Origin: a virus
Length of the DNA stretch: 37,478 nucleotides
IMG/VR virus record: IMGVR_UViG_3300045988_123091
Location: 1 to 37,478 of that record
Direction: 5' to 3' (one strand)
The notes beneath the pieces were generated by a model, which did not search any database, had not been told where the DNA came from, and saw only the letters and a list, made by a program, of their open reading frames with translations. Shown in pieces: positions 1,282-11,906 of this stretch (position 1 is the stretch's first letter; each line of letters starts with the position of its first letter). A program made the position numbers and the translations under genes.

Positions 1282-1311
1282 ATAAAAAACGCCTGGACTT
1301 TTACATCCAGG
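1282..1311 (-). terminator. Terminator of the integrase gene
   Basis: Minus strand reads cctgga-tgtaaaag-tccagg followed by cgTTTTTTATT. The int stop codon lies in the loop. Confidence 0.55.
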
Positions 1312-2407
1312 TGTTCTTGTTTTTATCCATGAAATTAACAATATCTTTGTCAGCTTGTGGTAACCAGTGTGCATATACTTGTAATACTGTGTCTAATTCG
1401 TCGCCTAAGCGCTTTGCGATGTCATAGACGGAGAAATTGACCTTTCCCTCTGTAACCATATTGTTTATCATATAAGACGCGCTAGAGTGCCTTAAATCGT
1501 GCATTCGTAGCATTGGTATCTTATCTTCATCTTTTAATCGTTTATTTAATGCATTTACATTGTTCTGTAATTGCTTTGTCACCTTTGACCTACTGAACGG
1601 CATGTCTATGCCAAAGATGTATGAGTCGTCTGGAACATCCAGTCTCGACTTTAGTGCTTTGTATTCATCGGCCAAAAATTGTGGCATGCTTATCTGCCTG
1701 TAGCTGTTTGGTGTTTTTGGTGTTGTGCACTTTCTAAGCTTGTCGTTCCATGTTTTGTTGATTGTGATTGTGTTGTTTTCAAAATCTAAATCTTTCCATT
1801 GAAGAGCAAGTGCTTCTCCAATACGTGTGCCCATGTAGAATTGGTTGCTGAACAATAGATGAAAGATTGTTGAATCAACGTTGTTTATAAATTTGTTGAA
1901 TTGTTCTTCTGTCCAAAATACCATTTCTTCTTTATGAAGGTTTGGGTCTTTTTTTAGATCAACCTTATTACATGGATTGGTTGTTATGTACTCATGCTTC
2001 GTAGCATAGCGCATAAGGACGCATAGACGCATATAATACTCATTCACAGTAGAATACTTCTTGTCGATAAGAAGTCGCTCTAAAACGTTCTGAACGTCTT
2101 CTGAGGTGATGTCTCTTAAAGCTTTATCACCAAGTGCATTTCTCCACACGTTAAATTCAACTCTATGATTGTTGTAGGTTGATTCTTTGATTCTCTTTTC
2201 TGAGTATTCTTGATATATGTCTATCATTGTACTCAGTGTCATTGTAGAGCCTGGATTCATCAAACTCTCTTTGAATTGTATCTCTGCTTTTATTGCATCT
2301 TGTTTTCTGTCAAAACCACGTTTCTTATATTGCTTTGTCTGATTTCCTACTTTATAGGAACCGTAGTAATACCATTTGTTTGTGTTGTTGTCTCTTTTTA
2401 CCGCCAT
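1301..2407 (-). CDS. int: Phage integrase, tyrosine recombinase family
   Basis: C-terminal catalytic pattern: GTRIGEALAL (Arg), HDLRHSSAS (H-x-x-R), VYAHW (Tyr). N-terminal arm/SAM-like region. GGAGGAAAA RBS before the ATG at 2407; the track's 2449 start is an upstream extension. Confidence 0.85.
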   Translation of the reverse strand: MAVKRDNNTNKWYYYGSYKVGNQTKQYKKRGFDRKQDAIKAEIQFKESLMNPGSTMTLSTMIDIYQEYSEKRIKESTYNNHRVEFNVWRNALGDKALRDITSEDVQNVLERLLIDKKYSTVNEYYMRLCVLMRYATKHEYITTNPCNKVDLKKDPNLHKEEMVFWTEEQFNKFINNVDSTIFHLLFSNQFYMGTRIGEALALQWKDLDFENNTITINKTWNDKLRKCTTPKTPNSYRQISMPQFLADEYKALKSRLDVPDDSYIFGIDMPFSRSKVTKQLQNNVNALNKRLKDEDKIPMLRMHDLRHSSASYMINNMVTEGKVNFSVYDIAKRLGDELDTVLQVYAHWLPQADKDIVNFMDKNKNTWM

Positions 2408-2762
2408 TTTTCCTCCAGTAGCTAGAGTATAAAAATAAAAATATGCCAATTTTATGCCATTTTATATAATATTGCTTTATTTAAAGCAAAACAGTTTTTT
2501 AACTAAAAAAATTAAAATTCTCTCTATATTATATATATGTCTCTAGCTACTCTTATATTCTCACATTTATATTCTATTTTCTATATTTTCTCTATAAAAT
2601 TTTATTTTTTAGAAAAATTTATGCCAAAAATTATGCCAATAAATCTCGAAAAATATGCCAGTGTTTTGGACAACAAAAAAAACGCAGAAACTGCGCTTAT
2701 ATTTAATGTTCGAATTCCTTACTATATTATATAAAAAAAGAATAAAATAATTTATATAATGC

Positions 2763-3656: not shown

Positions 3657-5150
3657 TTATTTGAACAACTTGAAAATCTTTTCAACAATTTTTAGGATCA
3701 TCTCGATAATTTTATTGATGCCATTCACGTTGATTTGTTCTTTATCTGTTGAATCATCTTGTTTCGGAATATCTTCAGATGGCTCTTTTTCTTCTTCCTT
3801 TACCGGACTAGATGCATAGAAGCTCACGTCGTGATAGATTACATTCTTATCAAGTGGAGTTGATGTGTATTGGTGCATAACTGCTTTATCTGATTGATCA
3901 GACTGAATCTCTCCGTCATTCGTTCCCCAGTTTGCAACCCACAATGGATGGTCTGTATCTACATACGTTCCAATCCATGATGTAGAAGTATATACACCGG
4001 TGTAATATCCTTTTTCTTTTAGAATATCACAGAATATTTTGCATGAGCGAGTACATCTGTCTTTTGTTAGGATTCCATTCTTTTGTTTATAGTGGTCGGC
4101 ATCTTCCATGTCGAACCACACGCCTAATTTAACATCAATATTCTTTAATAAATCTAAAATGTAGTTAGCTTCTGCTTTTGCCTGTTCATCGTTCAATGCA
4201 TAATCATATAGGTAAACGCCAAAAGGAACATTTGCATTAACACATTTCTGTACGTTCTCTGCAAATTGACTGTCCGTGTGTTCTCCATAAGCTGCACGAA
4301 TAATCACAAAATCATATTTTGATACGTCAATATTCTTATTGTGCTCAGAGATGTCGATTCCGTACCCTTTTACATTTTTTGTGTAATTTGGCTTAGGTTC
4401 GACTGGATCAGGAGCTTTTACATCCTCTTTTTTCTCTTCAATTGCAGAGAAAATGGCCCATACATCCTTTCCGTGAACTTCAGAGTTTGAAATGGCCATA
4501 AACTGAGTTTTATCTTGGCTCACTACATAACGATGACCGTTTGCGACTACTTTATAGTAGTATTCAAATTTATATCCTGAGTTCACTCGCTTTAATACTT
4601 TACCGGTTGGAGACCCTTCACGAATCGCAACAGAATCCACAGTAAGTGTTGCCACTGCGTGCTCCTCGACTAAATTAGATGGATTGTACACAGTAATTGC
4701 AGTGCTAGATGTTGGATGACTGTATCCCTTGAAATGTAACACTCCACAAGAACCGTTATAGGATAATGTTTGAATGTTAGCAGGAGATAAGTTTGTTCCT
4801 TGGTTCATGCCTAAGAATTGTCCTGTTCCGTTACCGTTGTCTTTAATCAGCATAGCAACATGGCCATAATAGACTCCGTTGTACCAACCATATACCGAAT
4901 CCCACACGAACCAATCGCCAGGATGGCCAATTTGTTCGAAATTAAAATAATCACCATATCCAAGTGCTTCTCTTCGATGCCAAATTTCTCGAGCACCTCC
5001 AGAGCCACCAATCGCTCTTCCTGGGTTAGGATATCCGGCTTTCTTCAAGAACTCTTTAAAAAGAGTAACGCACTGATTGTAGTAGCCACCTAGGCTAGAC
5101 GATTTGCCTAGCCATTCATTTTGAAAATCATCTTTTGTGAAGTAGTTCAT
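3657..5150 (-). CDS. Endolysin: N-terminal CHAP peptidase, central SH3-like region, C-terminal GH25 muramidase
   Basis: CHAP Cys/His pattern (YNQCVTLFKEF...YYGHVAMLI). GH25 pattern (KGYGIDISEHNKNID...VIIRAAYG...VPFGVYLYDYA...VWFDMED). Sits immediately after the holin. Confidence 0.85.
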   Translation of the reverse strand: MNYFTKDDFQNEWLGKSSSLGGYYNQCVTLFKEFLKKAGYPNPGRAIGGSGGAREIWHRREALGYGDYFNFEQIGHPGDWFVWDSVYGWYNGVYYGHVAMLIKDNGNGTGQFLGMNQGTNLSPANIQTLSYNGSCGVLHFKGYSHPTSSTAITVYNPSNLVEEHAVATLTVDSVAIREGSPTGKVLKRVNSGYKFEYYYKVVANGHRYVVSQDKTQFMAISNSEVHGKDVWAIFSAIEEKKEDVKAPDPVEPKPNYTKNVKGYGIDISEHNKNIDVSKYDFVIIRAAYGEHTDSQFAENVQKCVNANVPFGVYLYDYALNDEQAKAEANYILDLLKNIDVKLGVWFDMEDADHYKQKNGILTKDRCTRSCKIFCDILKEKGYYTGVYTSTSWIGTYVDTDHPLWVANWGTNDGEIQSDQSDKAVMHQYTSTPLDKNVIYHDVSFYASSPVKEEEKEPSEDIPKQDDSTDKEQINVNGINKIIEMILKIVEKIFKLFK

Positions 5151-5596: not shown

Positions 5597-5723
5597 ATTT
5601 TTTTCTCCTCTTAAAATAAAAAACTGCATCAAATATATGGCGCAGTTGTATATCGTTTGTTTAATTTGTGTTTAATGTGTAAAACCCTCAAAATTTAATA
5701 TGAAAAAAGCGAGGTAAATAAAA

Positions 5724-6618
5724 ATGCTATATTCTGACAAATTAACATCCTGGTTAAAGGAGAAGAAAATCTATCTAAAATACAGCACTTATACGAATTA
5801 TTGTAATGTGATTATGAATCACATAATGCCTGACTTAGGCGATTATCAAATTGAAGAATTGAATAACGACATCCTCCAGGAGATGATTCTTAAGAAAATT
5901 GAATGTGGCCGTAAAGATGGAAAAGGTGGCATATCATTTAAATATGCGAAGGACATCATTCAATTATTAAAATTTACACTTCCGTTTAAAGTCGAAATAC
6001 AATTACCGTATCATCCACCTAAGGCGGTCGAAATTTTTTGATAAAGAGAATCAAATAACATTGATTAATCACCTCCAATCTGAAATCAACTATAAGAACT
6101 TTGGCATTCTTTTGTGCATCCACACTGGCATCCGAATTGGAGAACTGTGCGCTCTTAAGTGGAGTGATATCAATGTCCAAAGTAAATTGTTAAAAATAGA
6201 TAAAACAATGATAAGAACGTATACAAAAGAAGACGGTAGTCACTTATATGTGACACCACCTAAATCGAGATCAAGCACACGTATGATTCCATTGAATACG
6301 TGGATTATGTATTATGCGATACTACTTCAAGGTGAAGAAGATAATTACATATTAACTAATCGAGATAAACCGATAGAGCCTAACAAATATAGGCTTTACT
6401 ACAATAGAATTCTGAAAGAACTTGAGCTACCACATCGTAAATTCCATGCACTCAGACATACATTTGCGACAAGGTGCATTGAATGTGGATGCGACTACAA
6501 ATCATTAAGTGAATTACTCGGCCATTCAAATGTATCAATTACTATGAATATATATGTCCACCCACAAATGGAATTGAAGCGAAAATGCGTCGAGCTGCTT
6601 TGCGATTACTACAAGTAA
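5724..6618 (+). CDS. Shufflon-associated tyrosine recombinase, reading frame interrupted at a T6 tract (6034-6039)
   Basis: The 5724-6041 ORF encodes an N-terminal SAM-like/core-binding domain. The 6061-6618 ORF carries the catalytic residues: TGIRIGEL (Arg), HALRHTF (H-x-x-R), GHSNV, NIYVH (Tyr). The second frame is open back to 6001 and reads ...KFFDKENQITLINHL. One T fewer would join the two as ...KAVEIFDKENQITLINHLQSE. The gene ends 2 nt before crossover site S1. Confidence 0.8.
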
Positions 6619-6620
6619 AT

Positions 6621-6633
6621 GTATGTCTTTTAC
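6621..6633 (+). repeat. Crossover site S1 (GTATGTCTTTTAC)
   Basis: 13-mer at the start of cassette A. Confidence 0.8.
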
Positions 6634-6943
6634 TGCCAACAAAACAGACGGTACTTATTGTAAAAAGATTACTAAAGATAATATTCCAAATTACATGTTA
6701 GGAAAAATTCCGGCTATTGTACCGACAAATCACTTTGATTGGGATAACATTGGCGTTTACGGCGAAGTTCTAGGAAAAATCCCTAAAGGTGAATTTGGTA
6801 TAAAACCGTATTCTGAAAATAGGGTTGTAGGAGACGACTCTGTAAACCAATATGGTTGGCGTTTAATGACAGATGGAAAGAATGAACCGTTAAATGTTAT
6901 ACAGCCTTTTATTGTCACTTTCTTTTGGAAGAGAGTCAAATAG
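6623..6943 (+). CDS. Silent tail-fibre C-terminal cassette A (class lacking the HxH motif)
   Basis: MSFTANKTDG...IPNYMLGKIP...QYGWRLMTDGKNEPLNVIQPFIVTFFWKRVK. Most similar to cassette G. Confidence 0.75.
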   Translation: MSFTANKTDGTYCKKITKDNIPNYMLGKIPAIVPTNHFDWDNIGVYGEVLGKIPKGEFGIKPYSENRVVGDDSVNQYGWRLMTDGKNEPLNVIQPFIVTFFWKRVK

Positions 6944-6944
6944 C

Positions 6945-7220
6945 CTATTTTATTCGGCGCCAAAAATATACTACAATATAAGGCTGAATATTGTTGTGCT
7001 TATTGTTTTTACCTTCATCCAAAGTTCTAGCTGTCCAGTAATACCCGGGTGATATTTCCATTTCTGATTGATACGTTGAATATTTATTGTCTATCTTTGT
7101 TGTTCCGTTAGTAGTAGAAGTGCGGTCACCTTTTACCGTTGTGTGACTATGAGCAGGCATTTCTTCTACCTTCAATTTATGACTGTATTCTCCACCACTG
7201 CTTTCGGCCGTAAAGGACAT
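6945..7220 (-). CDS. Silent tail-fibre C-terminal cassette B
   Basis: MSFTAESSGGEYSHKLKVEEMPAHSHT...KHNNIQPYIVVYFWRRIK (second half of a tail-collar-type domain). Confidence 0.75.
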   Translation of the reverse strand: MSFTAESSGGEYSHKLKVEEMPAHSHTTVKGDRTSTTNGTTKIDNKYSTYQSEMEISPGYYWTARTLDEGKNNKHNNIQPYIVVYFWRRIK

Positions 7221-7222
7221 AC
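7210..7222 (-). repeat. Crossover site S2 (GTATGTCCTTTAC on the minus strand)
   Basis: 13-mer at the start of cassette B. It is 18 bp from S3, in divergent orientation. Confidence 0.8.
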
Positions 7223-7240
7223 TTTTAATTAAGCTTATAT

Positions 7241-7253
7241 GTATGTCCTTTAC
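7241..7253 (+). repeat. Crossover site S3 (GTATGTCCTTTAC)
   Basis: 13-mer at the start of cassette C. Confidence 0.8.
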
Positions 7254-7500
7254 TACAAATTCTCAAGGCGGAGAATATAGACATAAGCTAGATATTTCAG
7301 AAATGCCTAAGCATGATCATGGACTAGCTTTATCTTCGACTGGTCAATTGCAAGACGACTTTAATGATGCGGTTAGTTCTGACTGGACGGAAAATTATAG
7401 GGTGAATAATAATTCTATATACAATAATACAGGTGAAGATAAGCCACATAATAACATTCAACCGTATATTGTTACGTATTTTTGGAAAAGAACTATTTAA
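7243..7500 (+). CDS. Silent tail-fibre C-terminal cassette C
   Basis: MSFTTNSQGGEYRHKLDISEMPKHDHG...PHNNIQPYIVTYFWKRTI. Closest to the currently expressed cassette. Confidence 0.75.
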   Translation: MSFTTNSQGGEYRHKLDISEMPKHDHGLALSSTGQLQDDFNDAVSSDWTENYRVNNNSIYNNTGEDKPHNNIQPYIVTYFWKRTI

Positions 7501-7795
7501 CCCTTTTCCAAAATGTAACAGTAATATATGGTTGAACATTGTTGTGATGCACATCGTCTCCTGACGAACCTGCTTGCACAAACGCAGATACCTTTGTAGC
7601 ATTAACTTTTTCTTCTGGAATAACATAGTTTTTAGTAGTGTAGTCTATCATTACTCCATATTTATTTACTATTTGTTCTTCCCAACCAGAACTCCCTTTA
7701 GCCATCAAAGACATATCATGATTGTGCTTAGGCATTTCTGATTTGGTTAACTGATGTTTATATTCTCCACCGATTGAATTTGACGTAAAAGACAT
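7493..7795 (-). CDS. Silent tail-fibre C-terminal cassette D
   Basis: MSFTSNSIGGEYKHQLTKSEMPKHNHD...HHNNVQPYITVTFWKRVK. The track ORF runs on to 7816 through fortuitous upstream codons. The 3' end overlaps cassette C by 8 nt. Confidence 0.75.
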   Translation of the reverse strand: MSFTSNSIGGEYKHQLTKSEMPKHNHDMSLMAKGSSGWEEQIVNKYGVMIDYTTKNYVIPEEKVNATKVSAFVQAGSSGDDVHHNNVQPYITVTFWKRVK

Positions 7796-7797
7796 AC
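7785..7797 (-). repeat. Crossover site S4 (GTATGTCTTTTAC on the minus strand)
   Basis: 13-mer at the MSFT start of cassette D. Confidence 0.8.
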
Positions 7798-8082
7798 CTA
7801 TGCGATACGCTTCCACATATAAACCACTAAATAAGGTTGCATAATATTATGGGGAGTGCTGCCTCCAACAGCGCCTGTCTTAGCTGGCGAATCTATAGTT
7901 TTATCAAATTTAGCTAATGAATATAGATTTACACTATTTCCTTGACCTGTTCCGTATCCCCAGCCTATTGCTACATCACCATTATGGTCAGCGTATAAGG
8001 CATTATGATAGTGGCTAGGCATTTCTCCCTCCGTAAGTTGATGCAAATACTCTCCGCCTGTTGAATTAGGTGTAAATGACAT
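7798..8082 (-). CDS. Silent tail-fibre C-terminal cassette E
   Basis: MSFTPNSTGGEYLHQLTEGEMPSHYHN...PHNIMQPYLVVYMWKRIA. Confidence 0.75.
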   Translation of the reverse strand: MSFTPNSTGGEYLHQLTEGEMPSHYHNALYADHNGDVAIGWGYGTGQGNSVNLYSLAKFDKTIDSPAKTGAVGGSTPHNIMQPYLVVYMWKRIA

Positions 8083-8084
8083 AC
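8072..8084 (-). repeat. Crossover site S5 (GTATGTCATTTAC on the minus strand)
   Basis: 13-mer at the MSFT start of cassette E. It is 18 bp from S6, in divergent orientation. Confidence 0.8.
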
Positions 8085-8102
8085 ATATAATCATGAGTCA
8101 AA

Positions 8103-8115
8103 GTATGTCATTTAC
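8103..8115 (+). repeat. Crossover site S6 (GTATGTCATTTAC)
   Basis: 13-mer at the MSFT start of cassette F. Confidence 0.8.
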
Positions 8116-8383
8116 AACCGGATGGATTGGCGGAAGCTACGAGCATAAATTAACTAAAGAAGAACTTCCACCTCATTATCACACATTGCTTGATATTCCT
8201 TCTGAATCTGGAAGTGCTATTAGTGGAAATAGCAATGACGAACTTTCATACGCAAGAATTACAGAACGAGCGGATTCAACTAAGAAATATTGGATAAGCA
8301 AAACAACGGAAGAAGGTAGCGGACATGCTCACAATAATATGCAACCTTGGATTGCAGTGCTGTTTTGGAGAAGAGTCAGCTAA
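8105..8383 (+). CDS. Silent tail-fibre C-terminal cassette F
   Basis: MSFTTGWIGGSYEHKLTKEELPPHYHT...HAHNNMQPWIAVLFWRRVS. The 3' end overlaps cassette G by 8 nt. Confidence 0.75.
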   Translation: MSFTTGWIGGSYEHKLTKEELPPHYHTLLDIPSESGSAISGNSNDELSYARITERADSTKKYWISKTTEEGSGHAHNNMQPWIAVLFWRRVS

Positions 8384-8687
8384 TTCTCTTCCAAAAGGCG
8401 ACTGTGATAAATGGTTGTAGATTGTTATGAGGCTTATCTCCTCCGTTTGTATGGATTGACCATCCATATTGCGTCCCGCTATTCCTATTCATTTCACTTA
8501 TAGTTTTAACCCCTATTTTATCTGAAGACGCTTGCCCCATTTCCGTCGGCACTATTCCGTTATTTGCCCACTTAACATGTGTGCTTGGAACAGGGACGGC
8601 GATGTCACCAATATAATAATTTGGAATTTCGTTTTGATTAAGTTTATGAGTGTATTCTCCACCGATTGATTGGGAAGTAAATGACAT
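8376..8687 (-). CDS. Silent tail-fibre C-terminal cassette G (class lacking the HxH motif)
   Basis: MSFTSQSIGGEYTHKLNQNEIPNYYIGDIA...QYGWSIHTNGGDKPHNNLQPFITVAFWKRIS. Confidence 0.75.
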   Translation of the reverse strand: MSFTSQSIGGEYTHKLNQNEIPNYYIGDIAVPVPSTHVKWANNGIVPTEMGQASSDKIGVKTISEMNRNSGTQYGWSIHTNGGDKPHNNLQPFITVAFWKRIS

Positions 8688-8689
8688 AC
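8677..8689 (-). repeat. Crossover site S7 (GTATGTCATTTAC on the minus strand)
   Basis: 13-mer at the start of cassette G. Coordinates are anchored on the ORF-track start at 8687. Confidence 0.75.
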
Positions 8690-8696
8690 ATACACA

Positions 8697-9521
8697 TTAT
8701 TTTGTGCGCATCCAAAAATATACTGTTGTATATGGCTGAATGTTATTATGCGGATTGTTTCCTCCTTCTCCATATACAGGGTTATCGTATTTTTTGTAAT
8801 TTTTTGACCATTTAGAGCTAAGTGCATTGCTATAGAATTCTTGTGATCCGCTGTCGTCAAATAAAGCAATCCCATGAGTATGTTTCGGTATTTCAGAAAT
8901 AACTAATATATGCTTATACTCGCCTCCGACTGAATTGGCTGTAAATGACATACTTGTACTACCATCATTTCCAGTACCTTCGCCAATCAAAGTACGACCT
9001 TGTCCGAACTGCTCCCAAGTACCTCCGATAAAGTTTCCGGGGTTGTTTTTATCAGCTGTGATATAAACTGAACCTACTGGATACATTGCATCTAGAATCT
9101 CACGAACCTTCTTTTCAGTCGTGTAATTACTTAATTTGTTTTCCATGTATTGGTCAACTAACTGTTGCCAGTTGTGTTCGCCAGGATCAACCATACTAAC
9201 TGCATTTGGAGCTTCTTTAACTTCAAGTGTAACTTGGTTTGTAACTAACTCGGTTGTTCCTTTAATTAAATGCACTGCCAATTCCAATGATCCAACGTTG
9301 GCCATTGCTTTACTGTGAATTGTATATACATTATTGCCGCACGGAAGAATCTCTTTGTAAACTTTTCCGTTGGCAGAATACTTCATATGAATCTGTTCTG
9401 TGTAATCTGCATATTCATCGCTTGAATCGTGCGCAAGTGTTACTGGAACATTGGCAGAACCTTGCGATTCATCCAATCCTTTTGTAACAGATAATTTTAA
9501 ACCATTTCTAAATAATTCCAT
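8697..9521 (-). CDS. Tail fibre / receptor-binding protein with C-terminal tail-collar-type domain (constant part 8954-9521, current cassette H 8697-8951)
   Basis: AGGAG RBS. Follows Dit, Tal and the CHAP protein. YPVGSVYITADKNNPGNFIGGTWEQFGQGRTLIG...GGEYKHILVISEIPKHTHG...PHNNIQPYTTVYFWMRTK matches the phage tail collar (PF07484-like) pattern from memory. Confidence 0.8.
   Translation of the reverse strand: MELFRNGLKLSVTKGLDESQGSANVPVTLAHDSSDEYADYTEQIHMKYSANGKVYKEILPCGNNVYTIHSKAMANVGSLELAVHLIKGTTELVTNQVTLEVKEAPNAVSMVDPGEHNWQQLVDQYMENKLSNYTTEKKVREILDAMYPVGSVYITADKNNPGNFIGGTWEQFGQGRTLIGEGTGNDGSTSMSFTANSVGGEYKHILVISEIPKHTHGIALFDDSGSQEFYSNALSSKWSKNYKKYDNPVYGEGGNNPHNNIQPYTTVYFWMRTK
8941..8953 (-). 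repeat. Crossover site S8 (expression site), in frame inside the tail-fibre gene
   Basis: GTATGTCATTTAC on the minus strand encodes ...S-M-S-F-T... at the junction between the constant 190-aa N-terminal part and the current C-terminal cassette. Confidence 0.8.
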
Positions 9522-9535
9522 TGCATATCTCCTAT

Positions 9536-10021
9536 CTAAACGTAGTTTGTTCCAACTACGATTCCATTTACTAATGTAAGCTGTAATTTCTTTTTAATAA
9601 CTTCTGAACCGCCACCGACATAACATTTTGGTCTGAAATAACCTAATGGCGCAGTTCCGATTGATAATAAATTAAATGGTCCTCCATACGTACCACCACT
9701 ACTACCTTGGTTTTGCCCGAAATATTTACCATTGTAATACATGGCTACGTGGCCGTAACCACCACCCATGTTTGAACCCCACACGGCAATATCACCATTT
9801 TGAGGAGAGCCCACAACATTACATGAATTTAACATCCCATTTGATGCTCTTTGCGTCCAAATATCCTTAGCACCACCACTAGCGGTACAATGCGCATATG
9901 GATATCCTAACCATTTCATGTAGAATGCATACCCATCCCAACATTGAGCACCATAAGCACCGTCTACATCATGACTTGTGCCATTGTATGTATTAACGAA
10001 TACAGAAAAGGGTTGAGCCAT
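9536..10021 (-). CDS. CHAP-domain peptidoglycan hydrolase in the tail module (virion-associated lysin candidate)
   Basis: GAQCWDGYAFYMKWLG (Cys) ... NGDIAVWGS ... GYGHVAMYYNG (His). Lies between Tal and the tail fibre. Confidence 0.7.
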   Translation of the reverse strand: MAQPFSVFVNTYNGTSHDVDGAYGAQCWDGYAFYMKWLGYPYAHCTASGGAKDIWTQRASNGMLNSCNVVGSPQNGDIAVWGSNMGGGYGHVAMYYNGKYFGQNQGSSGGTYGGPFNLLSIGTAPLGYFRPKCYVGGGSEVIKKKLQLTLVNGIVVGTNYV

Positions 10022-10022
10022 A

Positions 10023-11906
10023 TTACTCAACCCCTGTCACGATTCCTGATCTAGTAGTTACCGACTTTGTAACAGTATATGTACCTGTTAATCCGGTTTT
10101 ACCGTTAATCTTTATCGTGCTCGATGTTTTACTTAACGAAATCTCATTATTATCAGTGATAATATCAACTCCGTCTTTTGAAACTTTAACTTTATTACTG
10201 CCGTTCGACATACTGACTGAACCGTCACTGTCCACGGATACACTCGCATCCCCACAAATTAATTTAATACTGTGAGCTACGTAGCTACCATTAGACTTTA
10301 CAGAACGGAATGCAACTTTTTCAGGCAGTGTGTTTCCATTAGAATCAATAGCTTTGATATCTGCCCAAACAGAACCTTGAGCGACTCCTTCGGCACGTGG
10401 CTGCATGTTTATTTCGGCACCAACGTTTATATCCTTGACAGTATTTAGAACTCCTTTAAATGTGCCGTCGTTCATTATCAGTTCACCGGTGTCCATATTT
10501 AAATGGAATTTACCGTTCTTATCCGATAAAACACCTGTCAAAATATAGTCTGCAATAATTGAATTGTAATTGATTGCAGTACCCCATTGCCAATTTCCTT
10601 TTTCATCAACAGTATGTGCTATCTGAATTCCTTGAGTTCCTAGGGATAAAGCACCATACATATCCGCAATAGGATCAGTGTCTTCGAACAGAATCGCACG
10701 AACGTCTGACTTTGTCGCATTGTCTTTTTGAGCTTTCATCTGTGTGTTCATCATATTGACGATTCCTTTTATCATCTCCGCATGAACAGACGAATCTTTA
10801 ATATCAATAGCTTTTTCAACACTTCTTTGAATATCAGCCTGCTTATCAAAGAAAGACGGAACTACATCTCCAATCGTCAACGAATCCATTCTCTGACTGA
10901 TACAATCATATTTAATAGACTTAACACGAGCTGTTGTATCAATATCCAAACGTCTATTTCTGACTTTGACTGTATCACCTAAGTTTAATTTCAATAAGGA
11001 TTTAAACTCTGCATACTTATCCGATCTGGATAAATCAAAAACAGATACATTGTATTCAATTGAAGGCCTATCAATCTGATTTTCTTCAAATTCTTTTTTA
11101 GCAGCTTTTCGTAATTCATCACGCAATGAATCGATTGAATCACACACAACATCACCATCTTGAGGTTCGCCACTTACATCACTAGCTAACTTGATGTAGT
11201 CATATGTGATTTCTGAAATAAAGTCTTTAGGGTATTTGTTACGTAACGGACTATCTACAAACTCTCCTTCTGGGAGTTGGTATCCATTGTATGCAACTGG
11301 TCTGATACGCGTTACTGTGCTACTGAAGTCAATCTTTTCTTCGATTTCATTCATATTGAATCCGAATTCTACACGCATTCCATTATCGGCGCCGATGCGG
11401 TCGTAAATATAAATGTCATAGTTGTCATATCTGACTTCGCCACCCCATCTGCTTAAGAATGAATTGTCATCGTCTGAACCAATGCACTCAAGTACATTCT
11501 TTCTTATCCAATACGCAGTAGATTTCACTCCAATATTGGAATGGCCATTATACTTTGTGCCATTCAACAATGTACTTAATGCCGTTTGGCCATCACAGTT
11601 GGTAGGACGTTTATCATAAATAAAAGTGTCATTCTTTGCATCCAAGAATATTGGATATGCATTGACTGACACTTCAAATTTGTTTTTATCTTTTGAATAA
11701 ATGCGGAATAACTGTGCTCCGTAAGGAGTTCTTACTCTTACAACTCCATTATCTTCTATATCTTTCCAATGATCATCGGAATAAGGAACTGTCATAGACA
11801 ATTCCCATGTTCCGTTAATCGTAGCTTCAAATGGACATTCAGATGGATGCACTTCAATTCCGTTAACTGTGAAATCCGTTTGAGATGCATGATAGATTTG
11901 AATCAT
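10023..11906 (-). CDS. Tail-associated lysin-like / minor structural protein (Tal, prophage tail endopeptidase family)
   Basis: 627 aa, immediately after Dit. N-terminus (MIQIYHASQTDFTVNGIEVHPSE...) is typical of siphophage Tal N-terminal regions. Confidence 0.7.
   Translation of the reverse strand: MIQIYHASQTDFTVNGIEVHPSECPFEATINGTWELSMTVPYSDDHWKDIEDNGVVRVRTPYGAQLFRIYSKDKNKFEVSVNAYPIFLDAKNDTFIYDKRPTNCDGQTALSTLLNGTKYNGHSNIGVKSTAYWIRKNVLECIGSDDDNSFLSRWGGEVRYDNYDIYIYDRIGADNGMRVEFGFNMNEIEEKIDFSSTVTRIRPVAYNGYQLPEGEFVDSPLRNKYPKDFISEITYDYIKLASDVSGEPQDGDVVCDSIDSLRDELRKAAKKEFEENQIDRPSIEYNVSVFDLSRSDKYAEFKSLLKLNLGDTVKVRNRRLDIDTTARVKSIKYDCISQRMDSLTIGDVVPSFFDKQADIQRSVEKAIDIKDSSVHAEMIKGIVNMMNTQMKAQKDNATKSDVRAILFEDTDPIADMYGALSLGTQGIQIAHTVDEKGNWQWGTAINYNSIIADYILTGVLSDKNGKFHLNMDTGELIMNDGTFKGVLNTVKDINVGAEINMQPRAEGVAQGSVWADIKAIDSNGNTLPEKVAFRSVKSNGSYVAHSIKLICGDASVSVDSDGSVSMSNGSNKVKVSKDGVDIITDNNEISLSKTSSTIKINGKTGLTGTYTVTKSVTTRSGIVTGVE

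What the first reader, a model, noticed from the sequence alone, without database searches (positions are those of the whole stretch)
6621..8953. Architecture of the crossover sites: asymmetric 13-bp core and a variable central base that splits the sites into three classes
**Seen in the sequence**
- The only sequence shared by all eight junctions is GTATGTC-N-TTTAC.
- DNA on the constant side, 5' of the core, is unrelated between sites.
- DNA on the cassette side continues with semi-conserved coding sequence (..GG(A/C)GA(A/G)TA..).
- The core has only a weak dyad: GTA, 7 nt, TAC.
- N is A in S5, S6, S7 and S8; T in S1 and S4; C in S2 and S3.
- Sites S2/S3 and S5/S6 are divergent pairs only 18 bp apart.

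**Inference**
- By analogy with R64 sfx sites (conserved spacer plus one conserved arm, variable other arm), the asymmetry would favour inversion and disfavour deletion between the five directly repeated sites. That would keep all cassettes in the genome.
- If N lies in the strand-exchange overlap, only same-class sites would recombine efficiently. S8 would then pair only with S6, and the C-class pair S2/S3 is too close together to synapse.
- So either N is outside the overlap, or the system is hierarchical with preferred and rare variants.
Basis: partly seen in the sequence, partly recalled or inferred. Interest (0 to 1): 0.7.

Follow-up and report, generated by a model that had tools for sequence, protein, structure and literature searches.

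The report
Phage tail-fibre shufflon crossover sites
These are the eight recombination sites of a switch that lets a human-gut phage swap the tip of its tail fibre; the variable base that looked like a class label is a silent codon base that most likely lies just outside the exchanged stretch, so this is an ordinary new example of a known kind of system.

Summary
The eight GTATGTC-N-TTTAC sites are real (0.01 expected by chance). They are the crossover sites of a tail-fibre shufflon run by a tyrosine recombinase, in a temperate phage of Holdemanella or related Erysipelotrichaceae. This is the kind first described as Rin in Bifidobacterium prophages.

The 13-mer encodes Met-Ser-Phe-Thr at the start of each of eight alternative receptor-binding heads. 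N is the wobble base of the Ser codon.

I compared 156 sites from 46 related systems, plus about 30 contig ends. My site model is: degenerate left arm GTAAA, one free base (never C), a 7-bp exchange region GTATGTC, N (never G), conserved right arm TTTAC.

The three-class idea is not supported:
- N is randomly distributed within systems.
- 7 of 10 two-site systems pair sites with different N.
- Six contigs break exactly before N.
- Core position 6, by contrast, is never mixed within a system.

N still changes faster than its cassette, and I could not explain this.

In this window the recombinase gene carries a +1 frameshift. Six assemblies show one arrangement, so this copy is probably frozen or strongly down-tuned.

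The parts
5724..6618 (+). Shufflon tyrosine recombinase gene with no arm-binding domain. It is split into two ORFs (5724-6041 and 6061-6618) by a +1 frameshift.
   Evidence: Pfam Phage_int_SAM_3 (2.3e-11) and Phage_integrase (6.4e-29). After removing one T it reads as 297 aa, colinear with intact relatives. The closest solved structure is Tn1549 Int.
6034..6039 (+). Run of six T that carries the extra base. The frame reads TTT TGA, a 'shifty stop'.
   Evidence: Relatives have five bases here (TTTTT, or TATTT in L001). The six-T run is identical in six assemblies.
6615..6633 (+). Site S1: left arm GTAAA, T at -1, core GTATGTC, N = T, right arm TTTAC. It lies directly after the recombinase stop codon.
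6623..6943 (+). Silent head cassette c1 (106 aa).
   Evidence: ORF starts at the ATG of the core. 97% identical to the first cassette of L001.
6945..7220 (-). Silent head cassette c2 (91 aa).
   Evidence: Gp10_C hit recorded for this gene
7210..7228 (-). Site S2 (N = C, left arm TTAAA).
7235..7253 (+). Site S3 (N = C, left arm TTATA). Divergent from S2, with 18 bp between the cores.
7243..7500 (+). Silent head cassette c3 (85 aa).
   Evidence: A 91% homologue is fused to the constant part in protein P0004.
7493..7795 (-). Silent head cassette c4 (100 aa). Overlaps c3 by 8 bp at the stop codons.
7785..7803 (-). Site S4 (N = T, left arm GCATA). Abuts the stop codon of c5.
7798..8082 (-). Silent head cassette c5 (94 aa).
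   Evidence: Homologues of 84-87% are expressed in P0017 and P0024.
8072..8090 (-). Site S5 (N = A, left arm TTATA).
8097..8115 (+). Site S6 (N = A, left arm GTCAA). Divergent from S5, with 18 bp between the cores.
8105..8383 (+). Silent head cassette c6 (92 aa).
8376..8687 (-). Silent head cassette c7 (103 aa). Overlaps c6 by 8 bp.
8677..8695 (-). Site S7 (N = A, left arm GTGTA). Lies 7 bp after the stop codon of c8.
8697..8951 (-). Expressed head cassette c8 (84 aa), in frame with the constant part.
   Evidence: 274-aa ORF 8697-9521. Pfam Gp10_C covers residues 142-273.
8941..8959 (-). Site S8, the expression site (N = A, left arm GTACA, which encodes ..Ser-Thr-Ser).
   Evidence: The same junction ..NDGSTS|MSFT.. 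occurs in 27 related full-length proteins.
8952..9521 (-). Constant N-terminal 190 codons of the tail-fibre / receptor-binding protein gene.
   Evidence: It lies in the tail module downstream of the tape-measure, Dit and Tal-like genes.

Best explanation
**What it is.** This is a Rin-type phage shufflon. A 297-aa tyrosine recombinase with no arm-binding domain (5724-6618) lies next to eight alternative C-terminal 'head' cassettes of the tail-fibre / receptor-binding protein. Inversion between oppositely oriented sites fuses a different head, in frame, to the constant N-terminal 190 codons (8952-9521, minus strand). This presumably changes host specificity.

**Inferred site layout.** Each site reads 5'-[GTAAA-like degenerate arm, -6..-2]-[-1: A/G/T]-[GTATGTC]-[N: A/C/T]-[TTTAC]-3'.
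- Strand exchange happens inside GTATGTC, a 6-7 bp overlap. This stretch must be identical between partner sites, and its asymmetry gives each site a direction.
- N is the innermost base of the conserved cassette-side arm. It normally travels with the cassette and does not need to match between partners.
- The 13-mer is constrained twice: as a recombination site, and as the codons for Met-Ser-Phe-Thr.

**This copy.** The recombinase gene carries a +1 frameshift, so the array is probably locked on cassette c8, or switches only rarely.

**Shown versus inferred.**
- Shown: the anatomy, the comparative statistics, and shuffling among relatives.
- Inferred: the cleavage positions, the role of the arms, and the inactivity of this copy.
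For: **Identity of the system**
- Domain content and gene order fit a tail-fibre shufflon.
- 27 related full-length proteins with 84-100% identical constant parts carry at least 15 different heads, all joined at ..NDGSTS|MSFT... These include homologues of the silent window cassettes c3 and c5.
- L037 and L039 have 100% identical recombinase genes, yet the cassette fused to the constant gene in L037 sits behind the recombinase-end flank in L039.

**Constraint at the DNA level**
- G1 and T2 are conserved even where they are non-coding.
- T11 is invariant in 145/145 sites, although the phage uses TTT:TTC at 111:97.
- N is never G, although TCG makes up 10% of TCN codons.
- N is C in about a third of sites, although TCC makes up only 7% of TCN codons.

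**Left boundary of exchange**
- The same cassette occurs behind different flanks, and similarity starts exactly at core position 1.
- Position -1 never differs among 128 pairs of near-identical flanks.
- Among contigs that run from the constant flank, true contig ends fall at core position 55 in 8 cases and at position 99 in 4. One contig running from a recombinase-end flank ends at position 77.
- Those distances are typical assembler k values. They are what is expected if a shared k-mer that starts at position 1, and includes N, is preceded by two different flanks in the same sample.

**N is not tied to the flank and need not match**
- Six contigs end exactly after GTATGTC, against two that end at position 13.
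- N differs in 75 of 128 pairs of near-identical flanks.
- Within-system N identity is 33%, the random expectation. 29 of 36 systems are heterogeneous for N, and 7 of 10 two-site systems are mismatched.

**Positions 1-7 do need to match**
- Position 6 is T in 39 systems and A in 7, and is never mixed within a system.
- Two of the A systems (L011, L024) have recombinases 91-92% identical to the window's.

**Dyad symmetry**
- Left arms resemble GTAAA.
- There is a symmetric exclusion: -1 is never C and N is never G. So the base 5' of the proposed cut on each strand is never C.

**Frozen copy**
- The frameshift is clear against L001, L002 and L016.
- Six assemblies are 100% identical over 5601-9600 and show one arrangement.
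- The lineage-specific constant part (..LPCGNN..) is found only with the c8-type head.
Against: - **N changes too fast.** Among 26 pairs of cassettes with at most 2 mismatches in 120 nt, N differs in 8. Strict linkage of N to the cassette does not predict this.
- **Graded linkage.** Linkage to the cassette body decays gradually over positions 8-35. Some other exchange process therefore acts on the 5' ends of the cassettes.
- **A counter-example.** Two related two-site phages (L151, L152) have A at the constant flank and T at the recombinase flank, although all four of their cassettes differ. That hints at linkage to the flank, though it could be a 1-in-9 coincidence.
- **Unverified assumptions.** The contig-end argument rests on my reading of assembler behaviour. 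Mixtures of related strains could imitate isomers.
- **No biochemistry.** Cleavage positions cannot be resolved within the invariant GTATGTC.
- **Limits on 'frozen'.** Coverage of the window's contig is low (3.4x in one assembly), so minor isomers would be missed. TTT TGA is a 'shifty stop' that could allow some +1 frameshifting.
Confidence: 0.6

Rival explanations
1. N lies inside the strand-exchange overlap, at its cassette-side edge, and a mismatch there is tolerated. This would resemble the tolerance of conjugative-transposon integrases for heterologous crossover regions. The heteroduplex at N would then be resolved either way.
For: - N is a hot spot. It is unlinked from the flank.
- It differs in 6 of 17 near-identical cassettes that sit behind different flanks. 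One heteroduplex event would give about one half.
- The closest solved structure is Tn1549 Int. From my own knowledge, that family tolerates heterology in the crossover region.
Against: - By my derivation, an inversion across a heteroduplex at N leaves both recombinant sites with the same N in each daughter. Active systems should then become uniform for N.
- They do not. Within-system identity is 33%, equal to the permutation expectation, and 29 of 36 systems are heterogeneous.
- The dyad formed by the arms is centred on T4. That places symmetric cuts at -1|1 and 7|8.
Confidence: 0.2
2. One reading: N lies in the overlap and must match, so only sites with the same N recombine efficiently. That would give three classes, or a hierarchy of preferred and rare variants.
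For: - In the window, each N class contains sites in both orientations, and the two divergent pairs share N.
- The contig ends at positions 55 and 99 are also compatible with this model.
- Among relatives, inverted pairs share N slightly more often than direct pairs (36.5% against 28%). The difference is small and I did not test it for significance.
Against: - The model predicts that a flank keeps its N. Instead, near-identical flanks differ at N in 59% of pairs.
- The same 18-bp spacer carries A/A in the window and C/T in L001.
- Six contigs branch exactly at N.
- 7 of 10 two-site systems with intact recombinases would be locked.
Confidence: 0.05
3. The 13-mer is only the conserved coding start (Met-Ser-Phe-Thr) of paralogous head cassettes. 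Rearrangements would then arise by general homologous recombination, not site-specific exchange.
For: - The core is coding in every cassette.
- The mosaic 5' zone at positions 8-35 shows that some other exchange process acts on the conserved cassette starts.
Against: - G1 and T2 are conserved in non-coding contexts.
- The synonymous base T11 is invariant, and Ser is always TCH, never AGY or TCG.
- The left junction is sharp, exactly at position 1.
- A dedicated recombinase gene abuts the array in all 46 systems.
- 13 bp is too short for RecA-type recombination (general knowledge).
Confidence: 0.03

Closest known systems
Rin shufflon of Bifidobacterium prophages (Mavrich et al. 2018, PMC6109161); also reported in Eggerthella lenta prophages (PMC8778435)
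   Same: - The phage encodes a tyrosine recombinase that lacks the arm-binding domain.
- The recombinase flanks an array of small cassettes for the C-terminus of the receptor-binding protein.
- The constant N-terminal gene lies at the other end of the array.
- A short asymmetric repeat sits upstream of each cassette, in both orientations.
- Related genomes show different arrangements.
- One Rin gene also carries an inactivating mutation (a stop codon in Bl30698phi1).
   Different: - Host phylum: Erysipelotrichaceae here, Actinobacteria there.
- Core sequence: GTATGTCNTTTAC here, against the 11-bp TTCCCTAACCC.
- Head fold family: Pfam Gp10_C here, against TP901-1-like.
- This array has eight cassettes.
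- I did not test sequence relatedness of the two recombinases.
R64 / IncI shufflon: Rci recombinase and sfx sites (Gyohda et al. 2002, as summarised in PMC11852207)
   Same: - A tyrosine recombinase runs a multiple-inversion system that swaps the C-terminus of an adhesin.
- Sites are asymmetric: a 7-bp core, a conserved arm on one side and a variable arm on the other.
   Different: - Rci has an extra C-terminal domain, held responsible for inversion-only behaviour. The protein here ends about 20 residues after the catalytic Tyr.
- That system is on a plasmid and varies the pilV pilus adhesin, not a phage tail fibre.
- The conserved arm is 12 bp in sfx. Here only about 6 bp are conserved beyond what the coding sequence explains.
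- The left arm here is degenerate but recognisably related to the right arm.
Tail-fibre shufflon of BV01-like Phocaeicola phages (PMC13596623, preprint)
   Same: - A recombinase lies next to a multi-cassette inversion region that overlaps the distal end of a tail-fibre gene.
- A directional 10-bp motif separates the cassettes.
- All configurations were seen in reads.
   Different: - The motif is TGGGAGAACT, and there are three cassettes giving six isoforms.
- The host is a Bacteroidaceae.
- That motif is absent from the Bacteroidales relatives of this recombinase that I fetched.
Serine-invertase tail-fibre switches: Gin (Mu), Cin (P1), Min (p15B)
   Same: The biological role is the same: inversion swaps tail-fibre C-termini to change host range. 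Min is also a multiple-inversion system.
   Different: The enzyme family and chemistry differ. From general knowledge, these are serine recombinases with a 2-bp crossover that depend on Fis and an enhancer. Here the adjacent enzyme has a Phage_integrase (tyrosine) domain.
Tn1549 / Tn916-type integrases (PDB 6EMY, 6EMZ, 6EN0)
   Same: This is the best sequence match among solved structures, over the catalytic domain (E = 1.8e-17).
   Different: - Those enzymes are integrases with an arm-binding domain, and they act on transposon ends.
- The match is a lead about possible tolerance of heterology, not evidence of membership.

Membership tests
Phage tyrosine-recombinase receptor-binding-protein shufflon (Rin type) | A tyrosine recombinase without an arm-binding domain lies directly beside the cassette array. 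| tested here: met
   Pfam gives Phage_int_SAM_3 plus Phage_integrase only, in 297 aa. The phage's separate 382-aa integrase at 1301-2449 carries a weak Arm-DNA-bind_4 hit.
Phage tyrosine-recombinase receptor-binding-protein shufflon (Rin type) | A constant N-terminal receptor-binding-protein gene at the far end, fused in frame to one cassette through the repeat. | tested here: met
   274-aa ORF 8697-9521, with the core at codons 190-194. The Gp10_C domain spans the junction.
Phage tyrosine-recombinase receptor-binding-protein shufflon (Rin type) | Several cassettes, each preceded by the same short asymmetric repeat, in both orientations. | tested here: met
   Eight cassettes and eight cores, 3 on the plus strand and 5 on the minus strand.
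Phage tyrosine-recombinase receptor-binding-protein shufflon (Rin type) | Alternative arrangements are observed, with junctions at the repeat. | tested here: met
   Met for relatives: the L037/L039 isomers, cassette families behind different flanks, and contig ends at core positions 7, 13, 55, 77 and 99. Not seen for the window's own lineage.
Phage tyrosine-recombinase receptor-binding-protein shufflon (Rin type) | The recombinase is homologous to the Bifidobacterium Rin protein. | not tested
In GenBank phages the best matches are uncultured faecal contigs at 34-38% identity.
Rci / sfx shufflon (IncI plasmids) | The recombinase has the Rci-type additional C-terminal domain. | tested here: not met
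   The protein ends about 20 residues after the catalytic Tyr (..NIYVHPQMELKRKCVELLCDYYK). The Pfam Phage_integrase match runs to profile position 170 of 172, ending 15 residues before the C-terminus.
Rci / sfx shufflon (IncI plasmids) | Site made of a 7-bp identical core, one conserved arm and one variable arm. | tested here: inconclusive
   The sequence pattern fits: GTATGTC, conserved TTTAC, degenerate GTAAA. Cleavage positions were not determined.
Rci / sfx shufflon (IncI plasmids) | Inversion only: no deletion between direct repeats. | not testable with these tools
   Relatives carry from 2 to 8 cassettes. L043 lacks exactly one cassette, bounded by cores, relative to L034. This shows such indels occur over evolutionary time, but says nothing about rates.
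Serine DNA invertases (Gin / Cin / Min / Hin) | A serine-recombinase catalytic domain in the adjacent enzyme. | tested here: not met
   The adjacent enzyme matches Phage_integrase. No NCBIfam family reached its cut-off; the best was XerA at 69 bits against a 220-bit cut-off.

The most novel reading that the evidence does not exclude
This family could be an independent solution to inversion-biased shuffling. It would use a minimal site of about 19 bp, arranged 6 + 7 + 6, and a recombinase that has neither arm-binding nor Rci-type C-terminal domains.
- Only the 7-bp overlap would need to match between partners.
- The two bases flanking the overlap would be free, except that C is excluded 5' of each scissile phosphate.
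- The base next to the cassette-side cut (N) would be rewritten far faster than by point mutation. Possible causes are occasional alternative cleavage, or short conversion tracts that start at the crossover.

If so, the hundreds of natural sites would amount to a ready-made mutational scan of a tyrosine-invertase site.
Probability: 0.2. Interest if true: 0.55.

Novelty: new member of a known kind. Interest (0 to 1): 0.35.

Why it matters
- **Reach of the Rin type.** It extends tyrosine-recombinase tail-fibre shufflons to a widespread group of temperate phages of Erysipelotrichaceae (Holdemanella, Floccifex) in the human gut. The window's array has eight heads. The 156 sites surveyed (window plus relatives) fall into at least 88 distinct head clusters.
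- **Host range.** Such switches probably set which strains the phage can infect. This is relevant to gut phage ecology and to reading metagenome assemblies, which break at these sites.
- **Site rules.** The comparative data give testable rules for the site: which bases must match, and which are free. That could be useful if the enzyme were developed as a shuffling tool alongside Rci.
- **Limits.** None of this is conceptually new, and the specific three-class idea does not hold.

Tried and rejected
- **Near-identical DNA in GenBank phages.** No match. A protein-level search gave at most 38% identity, so no cultured reference exists.
- **Isomers of the window's own phage.** Exact look-ups of the expressed protein and of a silent cassette returned six assemblies, all identical in sequence and arrangement. 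The homologue search found its lineage-specific constant part only with the c8-type head.
- **L001, whose recombinase is 99% identical.** I expected an isomer. It is a relative with a largely different cassette set; only c1 and c4 are shared.
- **Scan for the recombinase-end flank in IMG/VR.** None of the 21 matches lay at a locus end, so I did not analyse them further.
- **BV01 motif in Bacteroidales relatives, and a repeat search in the distant locus L059.** Nothing usable.
- **The GTA/TAC dyad inside the 13-mer.** Rejected in favour of GTAAA/TTTAC, because the left-flank conservation supports the latter.
- **N carried by the flank (exchange 3' of N).** Rejected. Contigs would then end at core positions 63 or 107 and never at 7. 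I observed 12 ends at 55 or 99 and 6 ends at 7.
- **Using the position-55 and position-99 contig ends against the heteroduplex model.** Dropped, because assemblers pop single-base bubbles. That model is argued against only by the lack of homogenisation.
- **L151 and L152.** I suspected they were isomers of each other. They carry four unrelated cassettes.
- **Not used.** The metagenome-contig scan and structure prediction, because they would not have resolved the cleavage positions.

Full report
**1. The observation**

- The window contains exactly eight perfect copies of GTATGTCNTTTAC, at the reported positions and strands. Shuffles give 0.01 on average. Allowing two mismatches adds only three scattered, chance-level hits.
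- N is T, C, C, T, A, A, A, A for S1-S8. S2/S3 and S5/S6 are divergent pairs with 18 bp between the cores.
- Aligning the sites shows the 13-mer is the only contiguous block shared by all eight.
  - In every copy the core reads (G)T ATG TCN TTT AC. This is Met-Ser-Phe-Thr, the first four residues of an open reading frame. So N is the wobble base of a serine codon, and it is position 8 of 13 rather than the centre.
  - The 5' side is not unrelated between sites. A at -2 is present in 8/8, and positions -6..-2 resemble GTAAA, the reverse complement of the TTTAC that ends the core. The window sites have 0,1,2,2,2,1,2,1 mismatches to it.

**2. What the locus is**

- The region lies in the tail and lysis part of a temperate siphovirus-like genome.
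  - On the minus strand are genes for the tape-measure protein, Dit, a Tal-like protein and a small CHAP protein. Then comes a 274-aa protein whose residues 142-273 match Pfam Gp10_C (E = 1.5e-25).
  - Holin, a CHAP-GH25 endolysin and a separate 382-aa integrase lie further along.
- Between the lysis genes and the tail-fibre gene sits a tyrosine recombinase gene on the plus strand (Phage_int_SAM_3 plus Phage_integrase). After it come eight cassettes of 84-106 codons. Each begins with the core and ends with a conserved ..HNN.QP....FWKR motif.
- Cassette c8 is fused in frame to the 190-codon constant part. The other seven are silent, three on the plus strand and four on the minus strand.
- This is the anatomy of a shufflon acting on a receptor-binding protein.
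- Public assemblies place the phage in human gut metagenomes. The closest recombinase relatives in genomes are in Holdemanella, Floccifex and other Erysipelotrichaceae.

**3. Relatives and proof of shuffling**

- A scan of IMG/VR with the repaired recombinase found 46 loci (66-99% identity), nearly all with an intact 297-codon gene.
- The loci that reach into the cassette array carry two to seven copies of the same core. In seven systems the core is GTATGACNTTTAC, encoding Met-Thr-Phe-Thr.
- Clustering the cassettes shows the same head behind different 5' flanks: the recombinase end, the constant gene, the ends of other cassettes, and divergent-pair spacers.
- L037 and L039 have identical recombinase genes. 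Yet the head fused to the constant gene in L037 sits behind the recombinase-end flank in L039.
- A protein search found 27 full-length tail-fibre proteins whose constant parts are 84-100% identical to the window's. They carry at least 15 unrelated heads, all joined at ..NDGSTS|MSFT... These include homologues of the window's silent c3 (91%) and c5 (84-87%).

**4. Evidence from contig ends**

- I searched IMG/VR for the constant-flank junction GGTAGTACAAGTATGTC and kept only true contig ends. Of 75 junctions, 23 contigs stop within 130 nt.
- The stops fall at exact distances from the core start:

| Core position of contig end | Number of contigs |
|---|---|
| 7 | 3 |
| 13 | 2 |
| 55 | 8 |
| 99 | 4 |

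- Other contig ends, all running from other flanks (recombinase-end flanks or divergent-pair spacers):
  - One at position 77.
  - Three more at position 7: the genome-bin contigs L055 and L058, and the Logan contig L154.
- The values 55, 77 and 99 are usual assembler k values.
  - An end at position k is what a de Bruijn assembler produces when a k-mer starting at core position 1 is preceded by two different sequences. That means the same cassette, with its N, lies behind two flanks in one sample.
  - An end at position 7 means one flank is followed by different bases at N.
- This reading of assembler behaviour is my inference. If it is right, isomers coexist in many samples, the shared sequence begins exactly at position 1, and N comes in with the cassette.

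**5. Site architecture**

- Across 145 distinct sites:
  - Positions 1-5, 7, 9, 11 and 13 are invariant.
  - Position 6 is T or A.
  - Positions 10 and 12 vary rarely.
  - N is A47 / C47 / T51 / G0.
  - Position -1 is A60 / G28 / T57 / C0.
  - Position -2 is A in 140 sites.
  - Positions -6 to -4 are mostly GTA.
- Among 46 distinct flanks, 37 match GTAAA with at most two mismatches, against 14% by chance.
- The constraint acts on the DNA, not only on the protein.
  - T11 is invariant, although the phage uses TTT and TTC at 111:97.
  - TCG is 10% of TCN codons, yet N is never G.
  - TCC is 7% of TCN codons, yet N is C in a third of sites.
- The arms GTAAA and TTTAC are symmetric about T4. They leave nine positions between them: -1, then GTATGTC, then N.
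- I therefore propose a 7-bp (or 6-bp) overlap within GTATGTC. Positions -1 and N would be the innermost arm bases. The rule 'never C at -1, never G at N' then becomes one symmetric rule: the base 5' of each cut is never C.
- Divergent pairs are 18 bp apart in 10 of 12 cases, which leaves about 9 bp of left arm per site.
- This is the sfx layout: a variable left arm, a 7-bp core and a conserved right arm (PMC11852207).

**6. Does N define classes?**

Four models make different predictions.

- **(F) N stays with the flank.**
  - It predicts contig ends at positions 63 or 107 and none at 7.
  - I observed 12 ends at 55 or 99 and six at 7. Rejected.
- **(Class) N lies in the overlap and must match.**
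  - It predicts that a flank keeps its N.
  - N differs in 75 of 128 pairs of flanks with at most one mismatch over -30..-2, while -1 never differs.
  - The spacer ATATAATCATGAGTCAAA carries A/A in the window and C/T in L001.
  - Six contigs branch exactly at N.
  - 7 of 10 complete two-site systems pair sites with different N. Rejected.
- **(H) N lies in the overlap and mismatch is tolerated.**
  - I worked through strand exchange for an inversion. Each daughter duplex ends up with the same N at both recombinant sites, so active systems should become uniform.
  - They do not. Within-system identity is 60/182 = 33%, against 60.9 +/- 6.3 pairs expected by permutation (p = 0.57). 29 of 36 systems are heterogeneous. 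Disfavoured.
- **(C) Exchange within positions 1-7, with N travelling with the cassette.** This is compatible with all of the above.

In contrast to N, position 6, two bases away, is never mixed within any of 46 systems. Two of the A6 systems have recombinases 91-92% identical to T6 systems. That is how a position that must match between partners, but is not itself read by the enzyme, should behave.

**7. What remains unexplained**

- N is more changeable than model C predicts. Among 26 cassette pairs with at most two mismatches over 120 nt, N differs in eight.
- More generally, linkage to the cassette body decays gradually towards the core. The normalised unlinking values are:

| Region | Normalised unlinking |
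|---|---|
| 5' flank | 0.77 |
| N (position 8) | 0.62 |
| Positions 14-17 | 0.57 |
| Positions 18-35 | about 0.25 |
| Position 38 onward | 0.06 |

- So the conserved 5' ends of the cassettes are mosaic.
- Possible causes are short conversion tracts that start at the crossover, occasional cleavage one base further in, or selection on N to tune site strength. I cannot choose between them.
- L151 and L152 are related two-site phages with four different cassettes. Both have A at the constant flank and T at the recombinase flank. That is a small observation in the other direction.

**8. Inversion versus deletion**

- The R64 explanation for inversion-only behaviour relies on an extra C-terminal domain of Rci.
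- This recombinase ends about 20 residues after the catalytic tyrosine. That mechanism therefore cannot simply be transferred. The same open question was raised for Rin.
- Relatives carry from two to eight cassettes. L043 lacks exactly one cassette, bounded by cores, relative to the arrangement in L034.
- So gain or loss of a cassette at the cores does happen over evolutionary time. The rates are unknown.

**9. This particular copy**

- The recombinase gene is interrupted by one extra T in a run at 6034-6039.
- The same sequence, and the same cassette order, appear in six assemblies from at least three sequencing runs. They are 100% identical over 4 kb.
- The lineage-specific constant part occurs only with the c8-type head.
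- The array in this window is therefore probably locked.
- Two caveats apply.
  - Coverage is low (3.4x in one assembly), and assemblies show only the majority form.
  - The frameshift site reads TTT TGA. This is a 'shifty stop', at which a +1 slip would restore exactly the relatives' protein sequence (..EIFDKENQ..). A low level of enzyme is conceivable. This last point is my inference from general knowledge of frameshifting.

**10. Comparison with known systems, and verdict**

- Tail-fibre shufflons run by a phage tyrosine recombinase have already been described:
  - Rin in Bifidobacterium prophages, with an 11-bp asymmetric repeat (PMC6109161).
  - Eggerthella prophages (PMC8778435).
  - BV01-like Phocaeicola phages, with a 10-bp motif (PMC13596623).
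- The serine-invertase systems Gin, Cin and Min play the same role with different chemistry.
- No deposited phage has a close relative of this recombinase. No NCBIfam family reaches its cut-off. The nearest solved structure is Tn1549 Int.
- The locus is a new member of a known kind.
The three-class idea is not supported.

Noticed in passing
window 6034-6039 (within the recombinase gene 5724-6618): A +1 frameshift (six T instead of five bases) splits the shufflon recombinase gene. It is identical in six public assemblies. The site reads TTT TGA, a 'shifty stop', where a +1 ribosomal slip would restore the full-length protein exactly as in relatives.
   Followed up: partly
core positions 8-35 of cassettes, in the window and in loci L001-L046: Cassettes whose bodies are at least 95% identical often differ in their first ~30 nt. 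Linkage to the body falls gradually towards the core (0.06, then 0.25, 0.57 and 0.62). So the conserved 5' ends (MSFTxNSxGGEY) are mosaic, through some exchange process other than the canonical crossover.
   Followed up: partly
window 7223-7240 and 8085-8102; also L001, L002, L008, L016, L038, L040, L041: Divergent site pairs are separated by 18 bp in 10 of 12 cases (range 17-19; L154 has 16). This suggests a fixed footprint of about 9 bp for each left arm.
   Followed up: partly
window 7493-7500 and 8376-8383: Convergent cassettes c3/c4 and c6/c7 overlap by 8 bp at their stop codons. The conserved ..FWKR.. ends on opposite strands are packed tail to tail.
   Followed up: no
proteins P0042-P0088: The same junction motif ..NDGSTS|M[ST]FT.. 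occurs in proteins of 152-449 aa whose N-terminal parts are unrelated to the window's constant region (24-32% identity). Other phage lineages with different fibre shafts therefore seem to use the head module and its crossover site.
   Followed up: no
window 1301-2449 (-) and 9536-10030 (-): - A second, longer tyrosine recombinase (382 aa, with a weak arm-binding domain hit) is presumably the prophage integrase.
- A small CHAP-domain protein lies between the Tal-like gene and the tail-fibre gene, in addition to the CHAP-GH25 endolysin at 3657-5150.
   Followed up: no
L023:4043, L025:5335, L045:1121 (core variant GTATGTC-N-TTTGC): A site with A12 changed to G keeps the same flank-cassette junction in three loci, even though the surrounding segment is inverted in one of them. 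This would fit an arm mutation that weakens that site.
   Followed up: no
L041, contig end (IMGVR_UViG_3300018473_000116): The contig ends in an Illumina adapter sequence (GATCGGAAGAGC...). This is an assembly artefact in the public record.
   Followed up: no
P0028 (233 aa): A related tail-fibre protein reads through the core in the +1 frame (..GTGMMVVQVCHLL..). The record therefore has a frameshift just upstream of the junction. I cannot tell whether it is an error or real.
   Followed up: no
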